DNA of 64,000 nucleotides, from contig CBDCMT010000001.1 in the NCBI GenBank assembly GCA_965219095.1, positions 864,001-928,000 on the forward strand, given 5' to 3'. Positions within the stretch are counted from its first letter, which is position 1; each line of letters starts with the position of its first letter. Of this stretch, positions 25,064 to 38,468 are shown in pieces. The stretch comes from Bdellovibrionales bacterium. Its GTDB lineage: Bacteria > Bdellovibrionota > Bdellovibrionia > Bdellovibrionales > UBA1609. The notes under the pieces were generated by a model, which saw only the letters and a list, made by a program, of their open reading frames with translations, made no database searches and had not been told where the DNA came from. The translations under genes and the position numbers were made by a program.

Positions 25064-26062
25064 TTGGGAGTATGGTCTTTATTTTCTATGACTTCTTTTG
25101 CAGATATTTATACCAATTACAGAACTAAAACAATAAAAGATTTACAGGGTGATAAGTTACAGGACTACAAAAAAGCCTTTGATTGGTTTGAAAAGTCAGC
25201 AAAACAAGGAAATGCAGAAGCTCAGAATAATCTTGGTGTGATGTATGTTAGGGGAGAAGGCGTTTTAAAGGATTACGAAAAAGCCTTTGATTGGTTTGAA
25301 AAGTCAGCAAAACAAGGACTTGCAGAAGCTCAGTATGCTCTTGGTGTGATGTATAGTGAGGAAAAAGGCGTTTTACAGGACTACAAAAAAGCCTTTGATT
25401 GGTTTGAAAAGTCAGCAAAACAAGGAAATGCAGAAGCTCAGAATAATCTTGGTGTGATGTATTATAAGGGAGAAGGCGTTTTACAGGACTACAAAAAAGC
25501 CTTTGATTGGTTTGAAAAGTCAGCAGAACAAGGATTTGTAGAAGCTCAGAATAATCTTGGTGTGATGTATAGTGAGGAAAAAGGCATTTTACAGGACTAC
25601 ATCAACAAGGCTTATAAATGGCTTATTTTATCATATGAGGGAAAAGGCGTTTTACAGGATTACGAAAAAGCCTTTGATTGGTATGAAAAGTCAGCAGAAC
25701 AAGGAAATGCAGAAGCTCAGTATAATCTTGGTGTGATGTATTATGAGGGAAAAGGCGTTTTACAGGACTACAAAAAAGCCTTTGATTGGTATGAAAAGTC
25801 AGCAAAACAAGGATTTGCAGAAGCTCAGTATGATCTTGGTATGATGTATACTAAGGGAAAAGGCGTTTTAAAGAATTACCTCACAGCTTATGCATGGCTT
25901 ATTTTATCAAAAGCTCAAGCACATGGCAAATTAGAAGCGATTGTAAGCGAATCATTATCTATACTAGAAAATAAAATGACTTCCTCGCAAATTGCAAGAG
26001 CTCAAAAGCTAGCAAATCAATTTAAAGCTGAGAAAACCATTTTAGAGGAACCTGTGAATTAA
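25064..26062 (+). CDS. Sel1-like (SLR/TPR) repeat protein, probably secreted; start uncertain
   Basis: 36-aa units KAFDWFEKSA.QG.AEAQ.NLGVMY..G.GVLQDY in near-identical 108-bp DNA repeats. Confidence 0.92.
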   Translation: MGVWSLFSMTSFADIYTNYRTKTIKDLQGDKLQDYKKAFDWFEKSAKQGNAEAQNNLGVMYVRGEGVLKDYEKAFDWFEKSAKQGLAEAQYALGVMYSEEKGVLQDYKKAFDWFEKSAKQGNAEAQNNLGVMYYKGEGVLQDYKKAFDWFEKSAEQGFVEAQNNLGVMYSEEKGILQDYINKAYKWLILSYEGKGVLQDYEKAFDWYEKSAEQGNAEAQYNLGVMYYEGKGVLQDYKKAFDWYEKSAKQGFAEAQYDLGMMYTKGKGVLKNYLTAYAWLILSKAQAHGKLEAIVSESLSILENKMTSSQIARAQKLANQFKAEKTILEEPVN

Positions 26063-27323: not shown

Positions 27324-28994
27324 TTGTTAATGGCAACTAAGAAGAAAACTGTCAAAAAAAAGATCCAAAAATCTATAAAGAAAAAACAAACTCTTGAAGA
27401 TATTGAAAAAAAGCTTTGGCTTATGGCAGATAAGTTTCGAGTCAATATGGACGTTACTGAATATAAACATGTTGTTTTAGGACTTATATTTCTTAAATAT
27501 TTATCAGACGATTTTGATAAATTTCGCAAAAATTTAAGAAAACAATTCAAAGATCCAAAGCACGAAAACTTTTATAAAAACGCTACTAAAAATGGCATTG
27601 AGCAGGAACTAGAAAATAAAGATTACTATAAATCTCAAAATATTTTTTGGGTTCCTGTAGAAGCGAGGTGGTTTGGAAATACTGTAACGGGAGACCAAGG
27701 ACTCCAAGATGACGCTGAACAAGCTTATATAGGGAAAAGAATTGATAATGCTATGGCAGTTCTTGAAAAGGAAAACTCAAAACTTAAAAAAGTTTTGCCG
27801 AAGGATTTTGCAAGACAACAATCCAATGTACGCTTAGGAGAGCTTGTGAATCTTATTTCCACTATTGGCTTTAACGACACTGAACGTCCCTCAAGAGACA
27901 TTTTCACTCATGTTTATGAATATTTTCTGAGTCAATTTGCTTTTCAAGAAGGAAAAAAGGGAGGACAATTCTACACACCTAAGTCTGTAGTAAATTTGGT
28001 TGTAGAATGCTTAGAACCCTACAAGGGAAGAATCTACGACCCTGCTATGGGTTCAGGAGGCTTTTTTGTCTCAAGAAATCGTTTCATTAAAATGTACAGC
28101 GATCAAAAACACTTCCAAAAAACAAAACAAAATATCTCCTTCTATGGTCAGGAATCAAATCCAACAACTTGGAGGCTCGTTGCCATGAACATGGCTATTC
28201 GAGGAATAGACTTTAATTTTGGAAAAGAGCCAGCCGATACTTTTCATAAAAATCAGCACCCTGACTTAAAAGCAGACTTTATTATGACAAGTCCTCCTTT
28301 TAATATCAGTAATTGGGGTAGAGATAAACTCATTAAAGATAGACGTTGGAAGTACGGTATTCCGCCAAAAAATAATGCTAACTTTGCTTGGATTCAGCAT
28401 GTGATCGATCATCTTTCCCCCAGAGGATATGTCGGAATTGTTTTGGCCAATGGTTCGATGTCATCAGATATAAACAATGAAGGAATGATTAGAAAAAAAC
28501 TCCTTGAGTCTGATCTTGTAGATTGCATGATAGCATTCCCTGGGCAACTTTTTTTAAACACTCAAATTCCAGCTTGTATTTGGATTTTAGCTAAAGATAA
28601 GTCTGGAAAAGATGGGAAACGAAAAAGAAAAAATGAAGTGCTTTTTATTGATGCTAGAAATACAGGAGAGATGATTAACAGAACCCAAAGAGCCTTTTCT
28701 GATAATGAGATTCAGAAAATAGCTGGTATTTATCATTCTTGGAGAAATAAAGGTAAAAAATATGCAGATATAAAAGGGTTTTGCAAGTCTTCGGTTTTAG
28801 AAGAAATTAAATCTAACAATTATGTATTGACTCCCGGAAAGTATGTGGAGATAGACATAACTGAAGGTGATGTTCTTTCTTTTCATAAAAAAATGAATCA
28901 ACTCACAAAGAGATTAAAAGATGAGTTTGCCAAATCAGAGAAGCTAGAAAAAGAAATCAAAAAAAATCTATCAAGTATTGGGTTTGAAGTATAA
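27324..28994 (+). CDS. hsdM: Type I restriction-modification methyltransferase subunit
   Basis: LW..AD..R, EYKHVVLGLIFLKY, GQFYTP, DPAMGSGG, YGQE; motif IV reads SPPF. Confidence 0.95.
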   Translation: MLMATKKKTVKKKIQKSIKKKQTLEDIEKKLWLMADKFRVNMDVTEYKHVVLGLIFLKYLSDDFDKFRKNLRKQFKDPKHENFYKNATKNGIEQELENKDYYKSQNIFWVPVEARWFGNTVTGDQGLQDDAEQAYIGKRIDNAMAVLEKENSKLKKVLPKDFARQQSNVRLGELVNLISTIGFNDTERPSRDIFTHVYEYFLSQFAFQEGKKGGQFYTPKSVVNLVVECLEPYKGRIYDPAMGSGGFFVSRNRFIKMYSDQKHFQKTKQNISFYGQESNPTTWRLVAMNMAIRGIDFNFGKEPADTFHKNQHPDLKADFIMTSPPFNISNWGRDKLIKDRRWKYGIPPKNNANFAWIQHVIDHLSPRGYVGIVLANGSMSSDINNEGMIRKKLLESDLVDCMIAFPGQLFLNTQIPACIWILAKDKSGKDGKRKRKNEVLFIDARNTGEMINRTQRAFSDNEIQKIAGIYHSWRNKGKKYADIKGFCKSSVLEEIKSNNYVLTPGKYVEIDITEGDVLSFHKKMNQLTKRLKDEFAKSEKLEKEIKKNLSSIGFEV

Positions 28995-29005
28995 GAAGTG
29001 CAGAA

Positions 29006-29422
29006 ATGAAAATAAACCTTTCACCGCTAGAAAAAACAATTCGATCTCTTGAGAGTTCACTGTTAGTTTATGATAAATATGAAAATACAGAGGATAAAGA
29101 ACTCAAAGTTTCTTTAAAAGAAAGTGTCATTAAATCTTTTGAGATGTGTTATGAAATGTCTCGAAGCTTAATGGATCGTTATTTGAAAGAGTATACAGAC
29201 GAAAAAGTTGATCAAATGACAATTCATGATATTTTTAGACATGGAGAAAAAAATGGAATTCTTTCCAGTGCAGAAATTTGGTTTGACTACAGGAAAAAAC
29301 GAAATCAAACAAGCCATGTTTATGATATCAATATAGCCGAGGAAGTTTTCCTTACAGCCAGGAATTTTTTAGAGGATGTTCGATTTTTATTTAAAAAATT
29401 AGAGGAAAAAATTGAATCTTGA
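29006..29422 (+). CDS. HEPN-domain protein (HI0074/NTase substrate-binding family), putative RNase toxin
   Basis: IKSFEMCYE and RNQTSHVY (RX4HXY) motifs. Confidence 0.88.
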   Translation: MKINLSPLEKTIRSLESSLLVYDKYENTEDKELKVSLKESVIKSFEMCYEMSRSLMDRYLKEYTDEKVDQMTIHDIFRHGEKNGILSSAEIWFDYRKKRNQTSHVYDINIAEEVFLTARNFLEDVRFLFKKLEEKIES

Positions 29423-31037
29423 TCTTGCCCCAGCCTACGAAGAGGTCGTCAAAAAAATTTTTAAAGAGCATATTCCTAATGACGAGGTATGGGCTTTTGG
29501 CTCTAGAGTGAGGTGGATGGCAAAGGATAACTCTGATCTTGATCTTGTGATTGTTTCAAGAAAAAAAACTCCATCTAAAACTCTAACTCTTTTAAAATTA
29601 GACTTTGAAAACTCAGATCTTCCCATTAAGGTGGATATTCTGGACTGGAAAAGCATTTCTAAAGAGTTTCAGAAAATTATCAAGGAGGAGTATGTTATTT
29701 TCCAAGAAAAGAAAATGAATTTTAATTTTAGGTCCTGGGAAAAGTTTAAACTAAGTGAAATAACTACCTTTTTAAACGCAAAGAAAGTTCCTTTAAGCGG
29801 TTTAAAGAGAAAAACAAAAAAAGGAAAATATAGGTATTATGGAGTTTCTGGAGTTGTTGATTATATTGATGATTATACTTTTGACGGCAAATACTTTTTG
29901 ATCTCGAAAGACGGTGAGAATTTGAAGACTAGAAAAACGCCAATTGCATTCGTAGTTGAAGGTAAATATGGAATAAATGATCATGTTCATATATTAGATG
30001 AGAAAAAAGAAGGCATTCTAGACTATCTTGAAAATTATTTTAGATATTTAGATATTTCACCTTATATAACTGGAGCAGTCCAACCTAAATTAAACAAAAA
30101 ATCTCTTGAAAAAATCAAAATACTACTTCCTAAGAGAGATGATCGACTTAAAATTAATAAAGTTGCGAACAATTTTAAGCTTAAAATAGAAATAAATAAT
30201 AAAATAAATAATATTCTTGAATCTTTAGCACAAACAATTTTCAAATCTTGGTTTATTGATTTCGACCCCGTCTATGCCAAAAAGCTGGCATTCGACTCTG
30301 GTTTGTCAAAAAAACAAGCTGAACGTGTAGCTATAGCTATTATCTCTGGGGTTTGTAACCCTAAAAAGTTTGTTGAAGATTTCAAGAAAATGGATCATCT
30401 TTTATCTCAAAAGCTATCAAAAATGAACAAGAAAAAACAAAAAGAACTAGCTTATATGGCTTCTTTATTTCCAGGTGAGTTTGAAGATAGTGATTTAGGA
30501 GAGATTCCCAAAGGGTTTAATGTTTGCAGGATAGATCAAATACTCGAATTAGCCTATGGGAAATCTTTAAAAAAATCAAATCGTGTAGAAGGATCTTATC
30601 CTGTTTATAATTCAGAAGGACGCAGTGGTGTTCATAATGTTTATTCTGTTAAGGGGCCTGGAATTATTTTGGGAAGAAAAGGAACTACTGGTAGCCTGTA
30701 TTGGGAGGATAATAATTTCTTTCCTGTAGATACTACTTTTTTTATAAAACCTAGAAAATCATATAAACTTACTTTTATTTTTTATCTTATGCAAACTTTA
30801 GGGCTAGAAAAGATGAATACAAATGCCTTAACTTTAAATTTTAATAGAAACAATGTCTACAAACTTAAGTTTGTAGAGTTTCCTAGAGAAATAAGAATTG
30901 TATATGAAAACTTAGTTGCTTCCATAAGAAATCTTATGTTTAATAATTTAAAAGAGGTTGAGGAAATAGAGAAGTTAAGAGACACACTTCTTCCGAGATT
31001 ACTGGAAGGTAAGATAGGTTTATCAGACATACAGTGA
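29412..31037 (+). CDS. hsdS: Minimal nucleotidyltransferase (MNT) fused to type I specificity subunit
   Basis: N-terminal FGSRV...SDLDL (GSX10DXD) and LPIKVD; then two TRDs, LAQTIFKSWFIDFDPV and LRDTLLPRLL.G conserved HsdS regions. Confidence 0.9.
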   Translation: MNLDLAPAYEEVVKKIFKEHIPNDEVWAFGSRVRWMAKDNSDLDLVIVSRKKTPSKTLTLLKLDFENSDLPIKVDILDWKSISKEFQKIIKEEYVIFQEKKMNFNFRSWEKFKLSEITTFLNAKKVPLSGLKRKTKKGKYRYYGVSGVVDYIDDYTFDGKYFLISKDGENLKTRKTPIAFVVEGKYGINDHVHILDEKKEGILDYLENYFRYLDISPYITGAVQPKLNKKSLEKIKILLPKRDDRLKINKVANNFKLKIEINNKINNILESLAQTIFKSWFIDFDPVYAKKLAFDSGLSKKQAERVAIAIISGVCNPKKFVEDFKKMDHLLSQKLSKMNKKKQKELAYMASLFPGEFEDSDLGEIPKGFNVCRIDQILELAYGKSLKKSNRVEGSYPVYNSEGRSGVHNVYSVKGPGIILGRKGTTGSLYWEDNNFFPVDTTFFIKPRKSYKLTFIFYLMQTLGLEKMNTNALTLNFNRNNVYKLKFVEFPREIRIVYENLVASIRNLMFNNLKEVEEIEKLRDTLLPRLLEGKIGLSDIQ

Positions 31038-31288
31038 TTGTAAGTTAAAAATTTATACGATTGACCAATAGAGAAAAGGATAAGCTTTAAGAGACAACAC
31101 TCAATCGTTTTAATAAATTGTTATTCTAGAAGGCGTTAGAAATTAACAGAACAGACATAAATGCCTATGATACATAGCAACGAATGAAGCTTCTTTGCAA
31201 TTCTATAGTAGACTAAAAGCAGTGTAAGTAAAAAGGAGGACAGATTATGGTAAAACAAATCACCTAAATTCCCGACAAAAAATATACA

Positions 31289-34272: not shown

Positions 34273-34561
34273 TTGGAAAGTGGTTTGGGCTATCTTATCA
34301 GTTATTTTAAAGTCTCTTGCATGAGGTGATGCTTTTGCTATGGAGGGGAACTATTTAACCCTTGTGGTGATGAATTTTGTTATTGCTCTTTGTATGTTAG
34401 GAACACCTTTGGTTGTAAAAAGTTTAGTTTCTTCTGGATTATCAAGTTTTAGCAGTTCTTTAGTTCCTGTAGTAGGTATGACAATAGCCTCTGTTTACTC
34501 AAAAAGTGCTAGGATAGCCAAGTTAACAAAAAGAAATAAAGAAAAAGATGAAGTTTTTTAG
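34273..34561 (+). pseudogene. 3' fragment of a membrane protein, possibly VirB6/TraJ-like
   Basis: Hydrophobic segments, internal stop, 5' end cut by IS630, overlaps a VirB8-like gene. Confidence 0.4.
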
Positions 34562-35150
34562 GAAAGGAGTTTATATTATGAATTATAAAAAATATTTTGA
34601 GATATGGGCTGATGAACAGGCTCAAAACGTTTTTTTAAAAGGTTTACTCGGTTTTATGTTTTTCATAAATGCAGTTCTTTTAATTTCTGTCGTGATTTTA
34701 GCCACAAACGATCCCTTTATTATCTCTATAAGTGACACTGAATCTAAAATAGCTCATGTTTCAAAAGAAGAGACTCAAGAGCAAATTAAAAAAGAGTTAG
34801 AAAGGGCTATTGAAAGGTTTGTGAAATACAGACATAACTGGGATAGCGATTCAATACAAGAGAAATTAGAAGAATCCTCTCAATTTATAGCCTCTCATTT
34901 TAGAAAGAAGTTCCTAAGAGCTAATCAAGGACAATTAAAAGAAGCTAAAAAGAAGAAAATTAAACAAAGGTTTTATTTATCTTCTGATATAGTGTTTGAT
35001 TTGGAAAACAAAAAAGCTCAAATTACAGGAGATAGGATTCTTATTGTTGATGGGTTTCGTGCTACACAACCTATGAGTTTTAGGTTGGGTTATGAATTTT
35101 CTAAGAGGACGGTTTTAAATCCAGAAGGGGTCTATAGTGCTTCCGTTTAG
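34548..35150 (+). CDS. VirB8/TrbF/TraK-like conjugation protein, C-terminus clipped by IS630
   Basis: N-terminal TM, ERFVKYRHNW and terminal NPEGVY (NPxG) motif. Confidence 0.6.
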   Translation: MKFFRKGVYIMNYKKYFEIWADEQAQNVFLKGLLGFMFFINAVLLISVVILATNDPFIISISDTESKIAHVSKEETQEQIKKELERAIERFVKYRHNWDSDSIQEKLEESSQFIASHFRKKFLRANQGQLKEAKKKKIKQRFYLSSDIVFDLENKKAQITGDRILIVDGFRATQPMSFRLGYEFSKRTVLNPEGVYSASV

Positions 35151-37541: not shown

Positions 37542-38468
37542 GTGTATACTCTTTTAACCAATAGAGCCTATATTGGAGAACGTGAAATCAATAAGAAGAA
37601 AAAAGAGATAAAAAGGGAAGTGGTAAAAGCTGTATGGAAGCCTATTCTTTCAAAATCTATTTTTAACAAAGCTCAGGGGATACTAAAAGCAAATAAAAAT
37701 CGCTATAAGCCCGATGAGTGGAAAATCTATCCCTACCCCTTAACGAACAAGATTCAGTGCGGAGAGTGTGGCAAACTTATGGGAGGAAAGTCAGCTACAG
37801 GAAGAAATAAAAAGCATTACTATTACTCTCACACCAAAGGAAACAGTCTTTTTACAGAGACAGGAAAAAAATGTCGTCTCCATAGAATCCGAGCAGAGAG
37901 AACAGAAGATATTATCTTAAATGTTATTCAAGAGAAGATAACAAAACCACAAATTATCAATCAAATGATCAAAGACTATGAACAATCCAGCGCTAAGGAA
38001 GCTCCCAAAGTACAAGGCCAGCTCTTAAGTGTAGAAAAAGAAATAAAATCTTTAGTCAGGAAGCTAGAAAATCTTTCCATAAGGCTTTCTGAAATCCCTC
38101 ATGACATTCCAGCAGAACCCATTTATGAGCAAATGAGAAGAATCAAAGAAAAACGAGAAAAACTTATGGAAAGTGAGTTATTTCTAAGAGAGGAGCTTTT
38201 AAAAAGAAGCCACTTAGAAGTAGATCAAGAAAGGCTTATAGAAAATCTCAAAGTAACTACTGAAAATCTAAGAAAAACTCCCAAAGAAAAGCATAAAGAA
38301 ATCTATGATAATGTGATTGATTTTATAGAGGTTCACCCTCAAAAGGTACACTTGGGGCTTTATGCCCCAGCAAAACCAGTCTCATTAAGTTGTGTGGGTT
38401 CGACTAGTGTCTTACTTGGTGCCCATGAAGGGATTCGAACCCCCATACCTTGCGGTACTAGATCCTAA
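37542..38468 (+). pseudogene. Large serine recombinase, C-terminal part only (recombinase domain end, zinc ribbon, coiled coil)
   Basis: LTNRAYIG, PIL...F..AQ, YPL...IQCGECG..M, YY, coiled coil; catalytic N-terminus absent; reads into antisense tRNA. Confidence 0.85.

What the first reader, a model, noticed from the sequence alone, without database searches (positions are those of the whole stretch)
27324..31037. Type I R-M module with a HEPN toxin whose MNT antitoxin is fused to HsdS
Seen: the operon is hsdM, then HEPN (RNQTSHVY = RX4HXY), then one 541-aa ORF. That ORF has an intact MNT domain (GSX10DXD) read in-frame into a two-TRD HsdS, and its start overlaps the HEPN stop. Established: in HepT/MntA type VII toxin-antitoxin pairs, MNT neutralises the HEPN RNase by AMPylating the Tyr next to the RX4H motif, and PrrC shows a ribonuclease can guard a type I R-M complex. 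Inference: the antitoxin is tethered to the M2S methyltransferase. Loss, proteolysis or inhibition of the complex (e.g. by Ocr/ArdA-type mimics) could then release the RNase, making this an R-M-coupled abortive-infection or addiction system. Similar fusions may exist in databases; I know of no functional characterisation.
Basis: partly seen in the sequence, partly recalled or inferred. Interest (0 to 1): 0.82.

Follow-up and report, generated by a model that had tools for sequence, protein, structure and literature searches.

The report
Antitoxin fused to restriction specificity subunit
A bacterial toxin-antitoxin pair sits inside a restriction-modification operon with its antitoxin fused to the DNA-recognition subunit, a layout repeated across many bacterial phyla that likely makes the cell depend on keeping that subunit intact.

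Summary
Confirmed: hsdM, an HI0074-type HEPN (RNQTSHVY) and one 541-aa ORF joining an HI0073-type MNT (GSX10DXD) to a two-TRD HsdS. The fusion is not a private error. 70 of the 80 best genome loci, from 14 named phyla, carry it, 65 with the HEPN directly upstream, and a second MNT lineage is fused too.

Comparative signs of coupling: a G-loop Trp occurs in 138 of 139 fused MNTs but 16 of 151 unfused ones. The toxin is lost or inactive in 6 of 10 loci with a broken HsdS, against at most 1 of 16 with broken HsdM or HsdR. Published Zymomonas methylomes imply a fused HsdS is active.

Best reading: the antitoxin likely needs intact HsdS, so the toxin guards hsdS. Triggering by Ocr or ArdA is untested. 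Loss of HsdM or HsdR is tolerated, and unfused pairs are the majority (1 of 30 fused in a sample not ranked by HsdS).

The window copy looks eroded: no hsdR, SPPF in HsdM. Ten literature searches found no description of the fusion. The scan earlier noted HEPN/MNT pairs nested in type I operons elsewhere; none of the notes shown described this fusion. New variant of a known kind.

The parts
27324..28994 (+). hsdM, type I methyltransferase subunit (likely start 27330); motif IV reads SPPF (28290-28301) instead of NPPF, so likely impaired
29006..29422 (+). HI0074/PF08780-type HEPN, predicted RNase toxin; RX4HXY motif at 29300-29323 with the predicted AMPylation site Tyr106
29412..29711 (+). MNT (HI0073-like nucleotidyltransferase) domain of the fusion, predicted antitoxin; GSX10DXD intact; fusion-associated Trp35 at 29514-29516
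29712..29735 (+). short, low-confidence linker; holds an in-frame ATG (29715) without a Shine-Dalgarno match
29736..31037 (+). HsdS part of the fusion (TRD1, conserved region, TRD2, conserved region); in frame but departs at 19 of 93 conserved columns (median 2)

Best explanation
This is a HepT/MntA-type toxin-antitoxin pair embedded in a type I restriction-modification operon, with the MNT antitoxin fused to the N-terminus of HsdS; the fused MNT likely silences the HEPN RNase by AMPylating Tyr106 and likely needs the intact HsdS part to do so, which would make the cell dependent on hsdS. Shown: gene order, fusion, motifs and recurrence. Inferred from characterised relatives: RNase toxicity and AMPylation. 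Inferred from Zymomonas methylomes: the fusion works as the S subunit of M2S. Inferred from comparative patterns: dependence on HsdS, with Trp35 as a candidate contact. Truncation, loss or degradation of HsdS would leave newly made HEPN unmodified and arrest the cell, while loss of HsdM or HsdR would not. The window copy is likely an eroding remnant in which the toxin-antitoxin part outlives restriction.
For: (1) Recurrence: 70 of the 80 best genome loci are fused, from 14 named phyla. Of the 70, 65 have a HEPN directly upstream (63 with RX4HXY), 70 keep GSX10DXD, 63 show hsdM and 52 show hsdR. Metagenomes: 48 fused among 82 MNTs in 80 loci, 43 with HEPN. (2) Repeated origin: a second MNT lineage is fused too (60 of 150 listed representatives; separate branch, support 99), plus G027 with an EcoR124-like HsdR and L284. 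(3) Obligate fusion is common: 43 of 96 parsed linkers have no start codon, and in the second lineage only 6 of 58 have a Met near the HsdS start. (4) Trp at GSRxxW: 138 of 139 fused against 16 of 151 unfused MNTs, the strongest discriminating column. In the two searches that used no W pattern it was 25 of 25 against 10 of 120. Among 40 nearest fused/unfused pairs the unfused partner lacks W in 32 and the reverse never occurs. The window's closest unfused relatives (G006, P0121, P0122) have G. (5) Among W-type loci the HEPN is lost or inactive in 6 of 10 with broken HsdS, against 5-7 of 95 with intact HsdS and 0-1 of 16 with broken HsdM/HsdR but intact HsdS (Fisher p 0.0009-0.005). (6) In this genome both other HEPN + MNT::HsdS copies have a shortened HsdS and a damaged HEPN. 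(7) Z. mobilis uvs51, CU1rif2 and ATCC 10988 each list two HsdM and two HsdS genes, one HsdS with its S domain starting at residue 109. The methylomes of CU1, CU1rif2 and uvs51 show four motif strings that form two reverse-complement pairs, 100% modified (PMC8088579 passages and supplement).
Against: Unfused pairs of the same families are the majority: 1 of 30 PF08780 loci sampled across the phylum was fused to HsdS. Acetobacter plasmids carry the same operon with a stop between MNT and hsdS. 4 of 10 W-type loci with a broken or missing HsdS keep an intact HEPN (L131, L132, L172, L250). Several of the other 6 are related Poribacteria, show general decay, or may be assembly indels. The tree-based test on well-supported branches had only 7 independent pairs and was not significant (median p 0.125). 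The Trp is absent from the second fused lineage and from G027. The predicted linker is flexible. 16 of 96 fusions keep an ATG at the normal HsdS start position, so some loci may make free HsdS. The Zymomonas inference rests on a supplementary table that was cut when stored, and the paper does not assign motifs to genes.
Confidence: 0.5

Rival explanations
1. Incidental fusion. An ordinary HEPN-MNT pair is one of many cassettes nested in type I operons; loss of a stop codon joined MNT to hsdS and both domains work independently. The pair maintains itself and its plasmid or island, not HsdS.
For: Only 12 of 82 loci have hsdR directly after hsdS, and 49 of 65 scanned inserts (of 123 found) hit Pfam, mostly defence-type families. 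Fused and unfused forms interleave on the tree (29 changes). HsdS also takes other N-terminal fusions (GIY-YIG in P0055 and P0061), and one MNT is fused to an SLT domain (L264). The linker is flexible, and the ancestral HsdS ATG is retained in 16 of 96. Embedding in type I R-M is frequent (Payne 2024, passages).
Against: A Trp is nearly invariant only in the fused state. Toxin loss follows HsdS breakage but not HsdM/HsdR breakage. The fusion persists across 14 phyla and arose in at least two MNT lineages.
Confidence: 0.27
2. PrrC-like guard. The fused MNT reports the state of the M2S/R2M2S complex, so a phage anti-restriction protein (Ocr, ArdA, Stp-like) or infection-driven proteolysis switches off AMPylation and the HEPN causes abortive infection.
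For: The antitoxin is covalently part of the subunit that DNA mimics engage. Trp35 lies in the solvent-exposed G-loop beside the GSX10DXD motif (PMC11586414 section 8). hsdR is present in 52 of the 53 fused genome loci where it could be seen. Precedent and a general proposal exist for R-M-linked HEPNs (PMC3710099 passages; PMC12707154 passages).
Against: Broken hsdM or hsdR is tolerated with an intact toxin (and the window itself), so loss of the complex is not the trigger. Covalent AMPylation would have to be reversed or outrun (inference). There is no ATPase sensor as in PrrC. No phage data exist.
Confidence: 0.2
3. The fusion is an assembly error or a private mutation in this genome.
For: The genome is IS-rich and full of broken genes, and the junction was not checked in reads.
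Against: The closest fused homologue P0037 (72% identity over the MNT) and more than 100 other loci are fused at the same point, and the window MNT carries the fusion-type Trp.
Confidence: 0.02

Closest known systems
HepT/MntA type VII toxin-antitoxin, class I (Shewanella, PMC7641770; Legionella HEPN-MNT, PMC11586414; structures HI0074 1jog and HI0073 1no5)
   Same: PF08780 HEPN with RX4HXY next to an MNT with GSX10DXD. The closest solved relatives are HI0074 (E 3e-11), Legionella HEPN 8xdj (E 9e-9) and HI0073 (E 1e-20).
   Different: The MNT is not a free protein under 150 aa. It carries a 430-aa HsdS at its C-terminus and a Trp where HI0073 has Gly, and the pair lies inside a type I R-M operon.
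PrrC / EcoprrI
   Same: A HEPN ribonuclease gene embedded in a type I R-M operon and proposed to be held in check through the R-M proteins (PMC3710099 and PMC12707154, passages).
   Different: PrrC is an ABC-ATPase-HEPN protein silenced by binding EcoprrI. Here the toxin is a bare HEPN and the predicted brake is an enzyme fused to HsdS.
Genes embedded in type I R-M operons (guilt-by-embedding; Payne et al., bioRxiv 10.1101/2024.01.29.577857)
   Same: Defence cargo nested between hsd genes; these loci carry much of it.
   Different: The main text has no occurrence of MNT, hsdS or nucleotidyltransferase. Here the cargo is fused to a core subunit. Its supplements could not be seen.
Fused MNT-HEPN proteins (FhepTA, PMC13000451)
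   Same: An MNT working as a domain of a larger protein.
   Different: There the MNT is fused to its own toxin. The paper has no occurrence of HsdS or restriction.

Membership tests
HepT/MntA type VII TA, class I | HEPN of PF08780 or PF01934 with RX4HXY | tested here: met
   PF08780 E 3e-24; RNQTSHVY at residues 99-106
HepT/MntA type VII TA, class I | Adjacent MNT (PF01909) with GSX10DXD | tested here: met
   PF01909 and PF18765 hits; G30-S31...D42-L-D44; overlapping genes
HepT/MntA type VII TA, class I | MNT is a stand-alone protein under 150 aa | tested here: not met
   541-aa fusion; NF047752 below its cut-off; size statement from PMC7641770 passage
HepT/MntA type VII TA, class I | HEPN is a toxic RNase neutralised by AMPylation of the motif Tyr | not testable with these tools
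   Only motif conservation: Tyr in 100% and His in 98% of 102 HEPNs from fused loci
Type I R-M system | HsdM with intact motif IV (NPPF/Y) | tested here: not met
   Window copy has SPPF; 85 of 86 homologues from fused loci have NPPF
Type I R-M system | HsdS with two TRDs and conserved regions | tested here: met
   PF01420 in 2 stretches, PADLOC Specificity_I and Foldseek hits to 1ydx and 1yf2; many conserved positions altered
Type I R-M system | Cognate hsdR | tested here: not met
   None at the locus. The two hsdR queries from fused loci hit only an unrelated-family hsdR at C2:386425 (about 26% identity). PF04313 gives that gene and one partial match. Present in 52 of 70 fused homologous loci, out of view in 17.
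Type I R-M system | Methylates a bipartite site | not testable with these tools
   No methylome for this genome; indirect support for the Zymomonas homologue
PrrC/RloC guard nucleases | ABC-ATPase fused to HEPN | tested here: not met
   138-aa bare HEPN
PrrC/RloC guard nucleases | Embedded in a type I R-M operon | tested here: met
   Lies between hsdM and hsdS here and in most fused loci
PrrC/RloC guard nucleases | Activated by a phage anti-restriction protein | not testable with these tools
   No data

The most novel reading that the evidence does not exclude
A widespread, repeatedly evolved guard system in which the specificity subunit of a type I restriction enzyme is itself the antitoxin enzyme. 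The state of HsdS (DNA-mimic binding, proteolysis, TRD swapping) controls AMPylation of a HEPN RNase through the Trp-bearing G-loop, giving type I R-M a built-in abortive-infection backup and addiction.
Probability: 0.22. Interest if true: 0.85.

Novelty: new variant of a known kind. Interest (0 to 1): 0.62.

Why it matters
Type I R-M systems are generally held not to be addictive (recalled, not from a call), and PrrC and PARIS are the named guards of restriction. An antitoxin built into HsdS would give these systems a direct toxin lock on their most variable subunit. If anti-restriction proteins trip it, it would be a mechanistically new kind of guard. The architecture is common in databases but hidden under the label 'restriction endonuclease subunit S'; even a PADLOC HsdS profile (PDLC03138) matches across the MNT. 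A complete natural copy sits on pZMOB01 of the harmless, tractable Zymomonas mobilis ATCC 10988, so the question can be tested directly.

Tried and rejected
Complex prediction of MNT (1-100) with HsdS (108-541): verdict 'no answer', not used either way. Sequencing runs: 4 holders from one study and no RNA holder listed; the junction was not examined in reads. The viral collection gave no MNT-pattern relatives and mostly plain HsdS matches. No match in 5,426 E. coli genomes with a Nitrosomonas HEPN-MNT-junction DNA query. Z. mobilis ZM4 HsdSp (PMC8432527; deletion viable) was considered as a natural test and rejected: it is a different, 420-aa HsdS with no HEPN. The first internal-start count was confounded by GTG codons in the MNT's last strand and was redone on the linker alone. 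No HEPN column tracked fusion strongly (best 0.84 against 0.40). HsdS columns that differ between fused and unfused reflect TRD lineage and were not used. HsdM departure counts (22 of 194, median 3) are confounded because no homologue is closer than 54%, so only SPPF is leaned on. GGG enrichment at the W position in unfused MNTs (6 of 13 Gly codons) is too thin to show direction. Promoter and terminator scans were at chance level. Literature: sought the fusion, and sought background; none returned a description of MNT-HsdS. The library lacks most subscription papers; bioRxiv supplements were closed, and the one held supplement of PMC3710099 was only 4,325 characters.
Full report
Observation. 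Pfam gives N6_Mtase plus HsdM_N, NTase_sub_bind (PF08780), and Polbeta/NTP_transf_2 followed by two Methylase_S stretches. The motifs R99-x4-H104-x-Y106 and G30-S31-x10-D42-x-D44 are intact. The nearest solved relatives are HI0074 and the Legionella HEPN for the toxin and HI0073 for the MNT. The AlphaFold model (pLDDT 83.7, linker below 50) matches HI0073 and HsdS structures. One PADLOC HsdS profile already spans the MNT (PDLC03138, residues 3-285).

State of this copy. The locus lies among IS fragments in an IS-rich 3.1-Mb genome. There is no hsdR at the locus; the only full-length match to the hsdR queries is an unrelated-family gene in a separate operon. HsdM has SPPF where 85 of 86 homologues have NPPF. 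HsdS departs at 19 of 93 conserved columns against a median of 2, whereas the MNT departs at 1 of 29 and the HEPN at 2 of 15. Lineage distance explains part of this, since no HsdM homologue is closer than 54%. A 97% copy of the 3' part of hsdS elsewhere differs by 7 non-synonymous changes and 1 synonymous change and is frameshifted. The genome's two other PF08780 loci also precede an MNT fused to HsdS sequence. One has a HEPN without the motif Arg and a one-TRD HsdS; in the other both genes are cut by IS elements. I read the window copy as eroding, with the toxin-antitoxin part and the fused reading frame still intact (inference).

Recurrence. 25 of the 120 best protein hits have the MNT+HsdS architecture. 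A scan with MNT patterns found at least 575 relatives in the genome collection; of the best 80, 70 are fused, 3 split and 7 alone. Of the 70, 65 have a HEPN directly upstream, 4 have none and 1 is at a contig edge. 63 HEPNs keep RX4HXY, all 70 MNTs keep GSX10DXD, hsdM is seen in 63, and hsdR is seen in 52 (17 out of view, 1 not found). They come from 14 named phyla. Metagenomes add 48 fused, 2 split, 18 alone and 14 contig-end MNTs. This ranking favours fusions and gives no frequency. In a sample not ranked by HsdS, 1 of the 30 best PF08780 loci in the phylum was fused to HsdS. A second MNT lineage, the one on contig C1, is fused in 60 of 150 listed representatives and forms its own branch. 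G027 has a fusion in an operon with an EcoR124-like HsdR. Split and free forms occur among close kin: Acetobacter plasmids, two Zymomonas plasmids and G006, whose free pair is 59% identical to the window's MNT.

Is one protein made? Of 114 distinct fusions, 96 could be parsed. 43 have no ATG, GTG or TTG between the MNT and the first HsdS Trp; 16 keep an ATG exactly four codons before it, where 79 of 93 unfused HsdS proteins start. In the second lineage 6 of 58 have a nearby Met. So many loci can only make the fusion, and some may make both forms. The window has an ATG seven codons before the Trp with no Shine-Dalgarno match.

Is the fused HsdS active? Z. mobilis ATCC 10988 carries hsdM-HEPN-MNT::hsdS-hsdR on pZMOB01 and a plain type I system on pZMOB02; pZMOB03 has none annotated. 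In PMC8088579 (passages, section 7, supplementary files 1 and 5, the latter cut when stored) ATCC 10988, uvs51 and CU1rif2 each list two HsdM and two HsdS genes, one HsdS with its S domain starting at residue 109. The derivatives show four m6A motif strings at 100%, which are two reverse-complement pairs. Two systems and two sites imply the fused subunit methylates. This is my inference; the paper does not assign the motifs. That fusion has no start codon in its linker.

Signs of coupling. The residue three after GSR is Trp in 138 of 139 fused and 16 of 151 unfused MNTs of the window's lineage, with contig-end rows dropped. One of the two patterns in each locus scan contained this Trp, but the two protein searches did not, and they give 25 of 25 against 10 of 120. 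In 40 nearest fused/unfused pairs the unfused partner lacks the Trp in 32, both keep it in 8 (7 of these among the 13 closest pairs) and the reverse never occurs; these pairs are not independent. The tree-based test on well-supported branches had 7 pairs and a median p of 0.125. The position lies in the solvent-exposed G-loop described for the Legionella MNT (PMC11586414, section 8). Among Trp-type loci the HEPN is absent or has lost a motif residue in 6 of 10 with a broken HsdS and 5 of 95 with an intact one (7 of 95 if two Glu-to-Lys changes count). I reclassified ten rows by eye after my patterns miscalled them. Where HsdM or HsdR is broken but HsdS is intact, the HEPN is intact in 15 of 16 and doubtful in one (p 0.0009-0.005). 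Against this: four loci keep an intact toxin without full HsdS, several of the six are related or generally decayed, and the second lineage lacks the Trp.

Mechanism. Shown: anatomy, motifs and recurrence. From characterised relatives: a class I HEPN RNase neutralised by Tyr AMPylation (PMC7641770 and PMC11586414, passages). Inferred: the fused MNT depends on the HsdS part, so damage to hsdS lets unmodified toxin accumulate, while loss of M or R does not (0.5). Rivals are an incidental read-through fusion in a cargo hotspot (0.27) and a phage-triggered guard (0.2). For the first rival, hsdR follows hsdS directly in only 12 of 82 loci, and 49 of 65 scanned inserts hit Pfam families such as AAA_13, AAA_21, SIR2, TIR, RVT, Fic and Abi_C. 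The guard model is compatible with the best reading but has no evidence of its own.

Comparison with what is known. It works like a HepT/MntA pair and meets the sequence tests for class I except that the MNT is not a small free protein. It is not a PrrC member, having no ABC ATPase. Anantharaman 2013 (passages) proposed R-M-linked HEPNs as PrrC-like backups and stated that HEPN domains fuse to nucleases and ATPases but not to methylases; the passages seen do not mention MNT fused to HsdS. Payne 2024 (passages) documents embedding in type I operons without MNT or hsdS in its main text. I also saw passages of PMC12839542, PMC2701414, PMC13000451, PMC12707154, PMC10123105, PMC8432527 and 10.1101/2021.04.16.440249; none describes the fusion. 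Searches found no paper on it, within a library that lacks most subscription journals and with bioRxiv supplements closed.

Verdict. A real, widespread and apparently undescribed domain architecture with comparative hints of functional coupling to HsdS and a ready test system in Zymomonas. New variant of a known kind; interest 0.62.

Noticed in passing
G000:C1:175225-178272 (L258): Second hsdM-HEPN-MNT::hsdS locus of another MNT lineage; the HEPN lacks the motif Arg and HsdS has one TRD (363 aa).
   Followed up: yes
G000:C2:530913-533493: Third HEPN + MNT::HsdS start; the HEPN is split by one IS and the fusion runs in frame into a transposase.
   Followed up: partly
G000:C2:2191502-2192652: 97% duplicate of window 30131-31258 (3' part of hsdS), frameshifted, behind an IS.
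   Followed up: partly
window 28287-28301: HsdM motif IV reads TSPPF, like the motif recalled for the m4C methyltransferase M.PvuII (recalled, not checked); could be decay or a change of target base.
   Followed up: no
window 29691-29718: AGGAGG precedes an out-of-frame ATG whose 7-codon frame ends in a TGA overlapping the in-frame ATG at 29715; possibly chance, possibly a coupling relic.
   Followed up: no
G000:C2:381415-389671: Complete type I operon whose HsdM begins with a helix-turn-helix-like extension, with two inserted genes between the hsd genes.
   Followed up: no
L121:7980-9881: The fusion appears to carry two tandem MNT domains before HsdS.
   Followed up: no
L264:1863-2990: MNT fused to an SLT transglycosylase domain, downstream of a PF08780 HEPN.
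   Followed up: partly
L135:7953-9614, L211:3403-4983, L253:9740-11251: Reverse-transcriptase genes inserted between the fused hsdS and hsdR.
   Followed up: no
window 34340-35150 and 37542-38468: TraE/VirB8-like fragment and a serine recombinase next to a tRNA-like stretch, suggesting remains of an integrative element broken up by IS copies.
   Followed up: no
window 25064-26062: Sel1-repeat protein (8 repeats) upstream of the locus, partly duplicated elsewhere in the genome.
   Followed up: no
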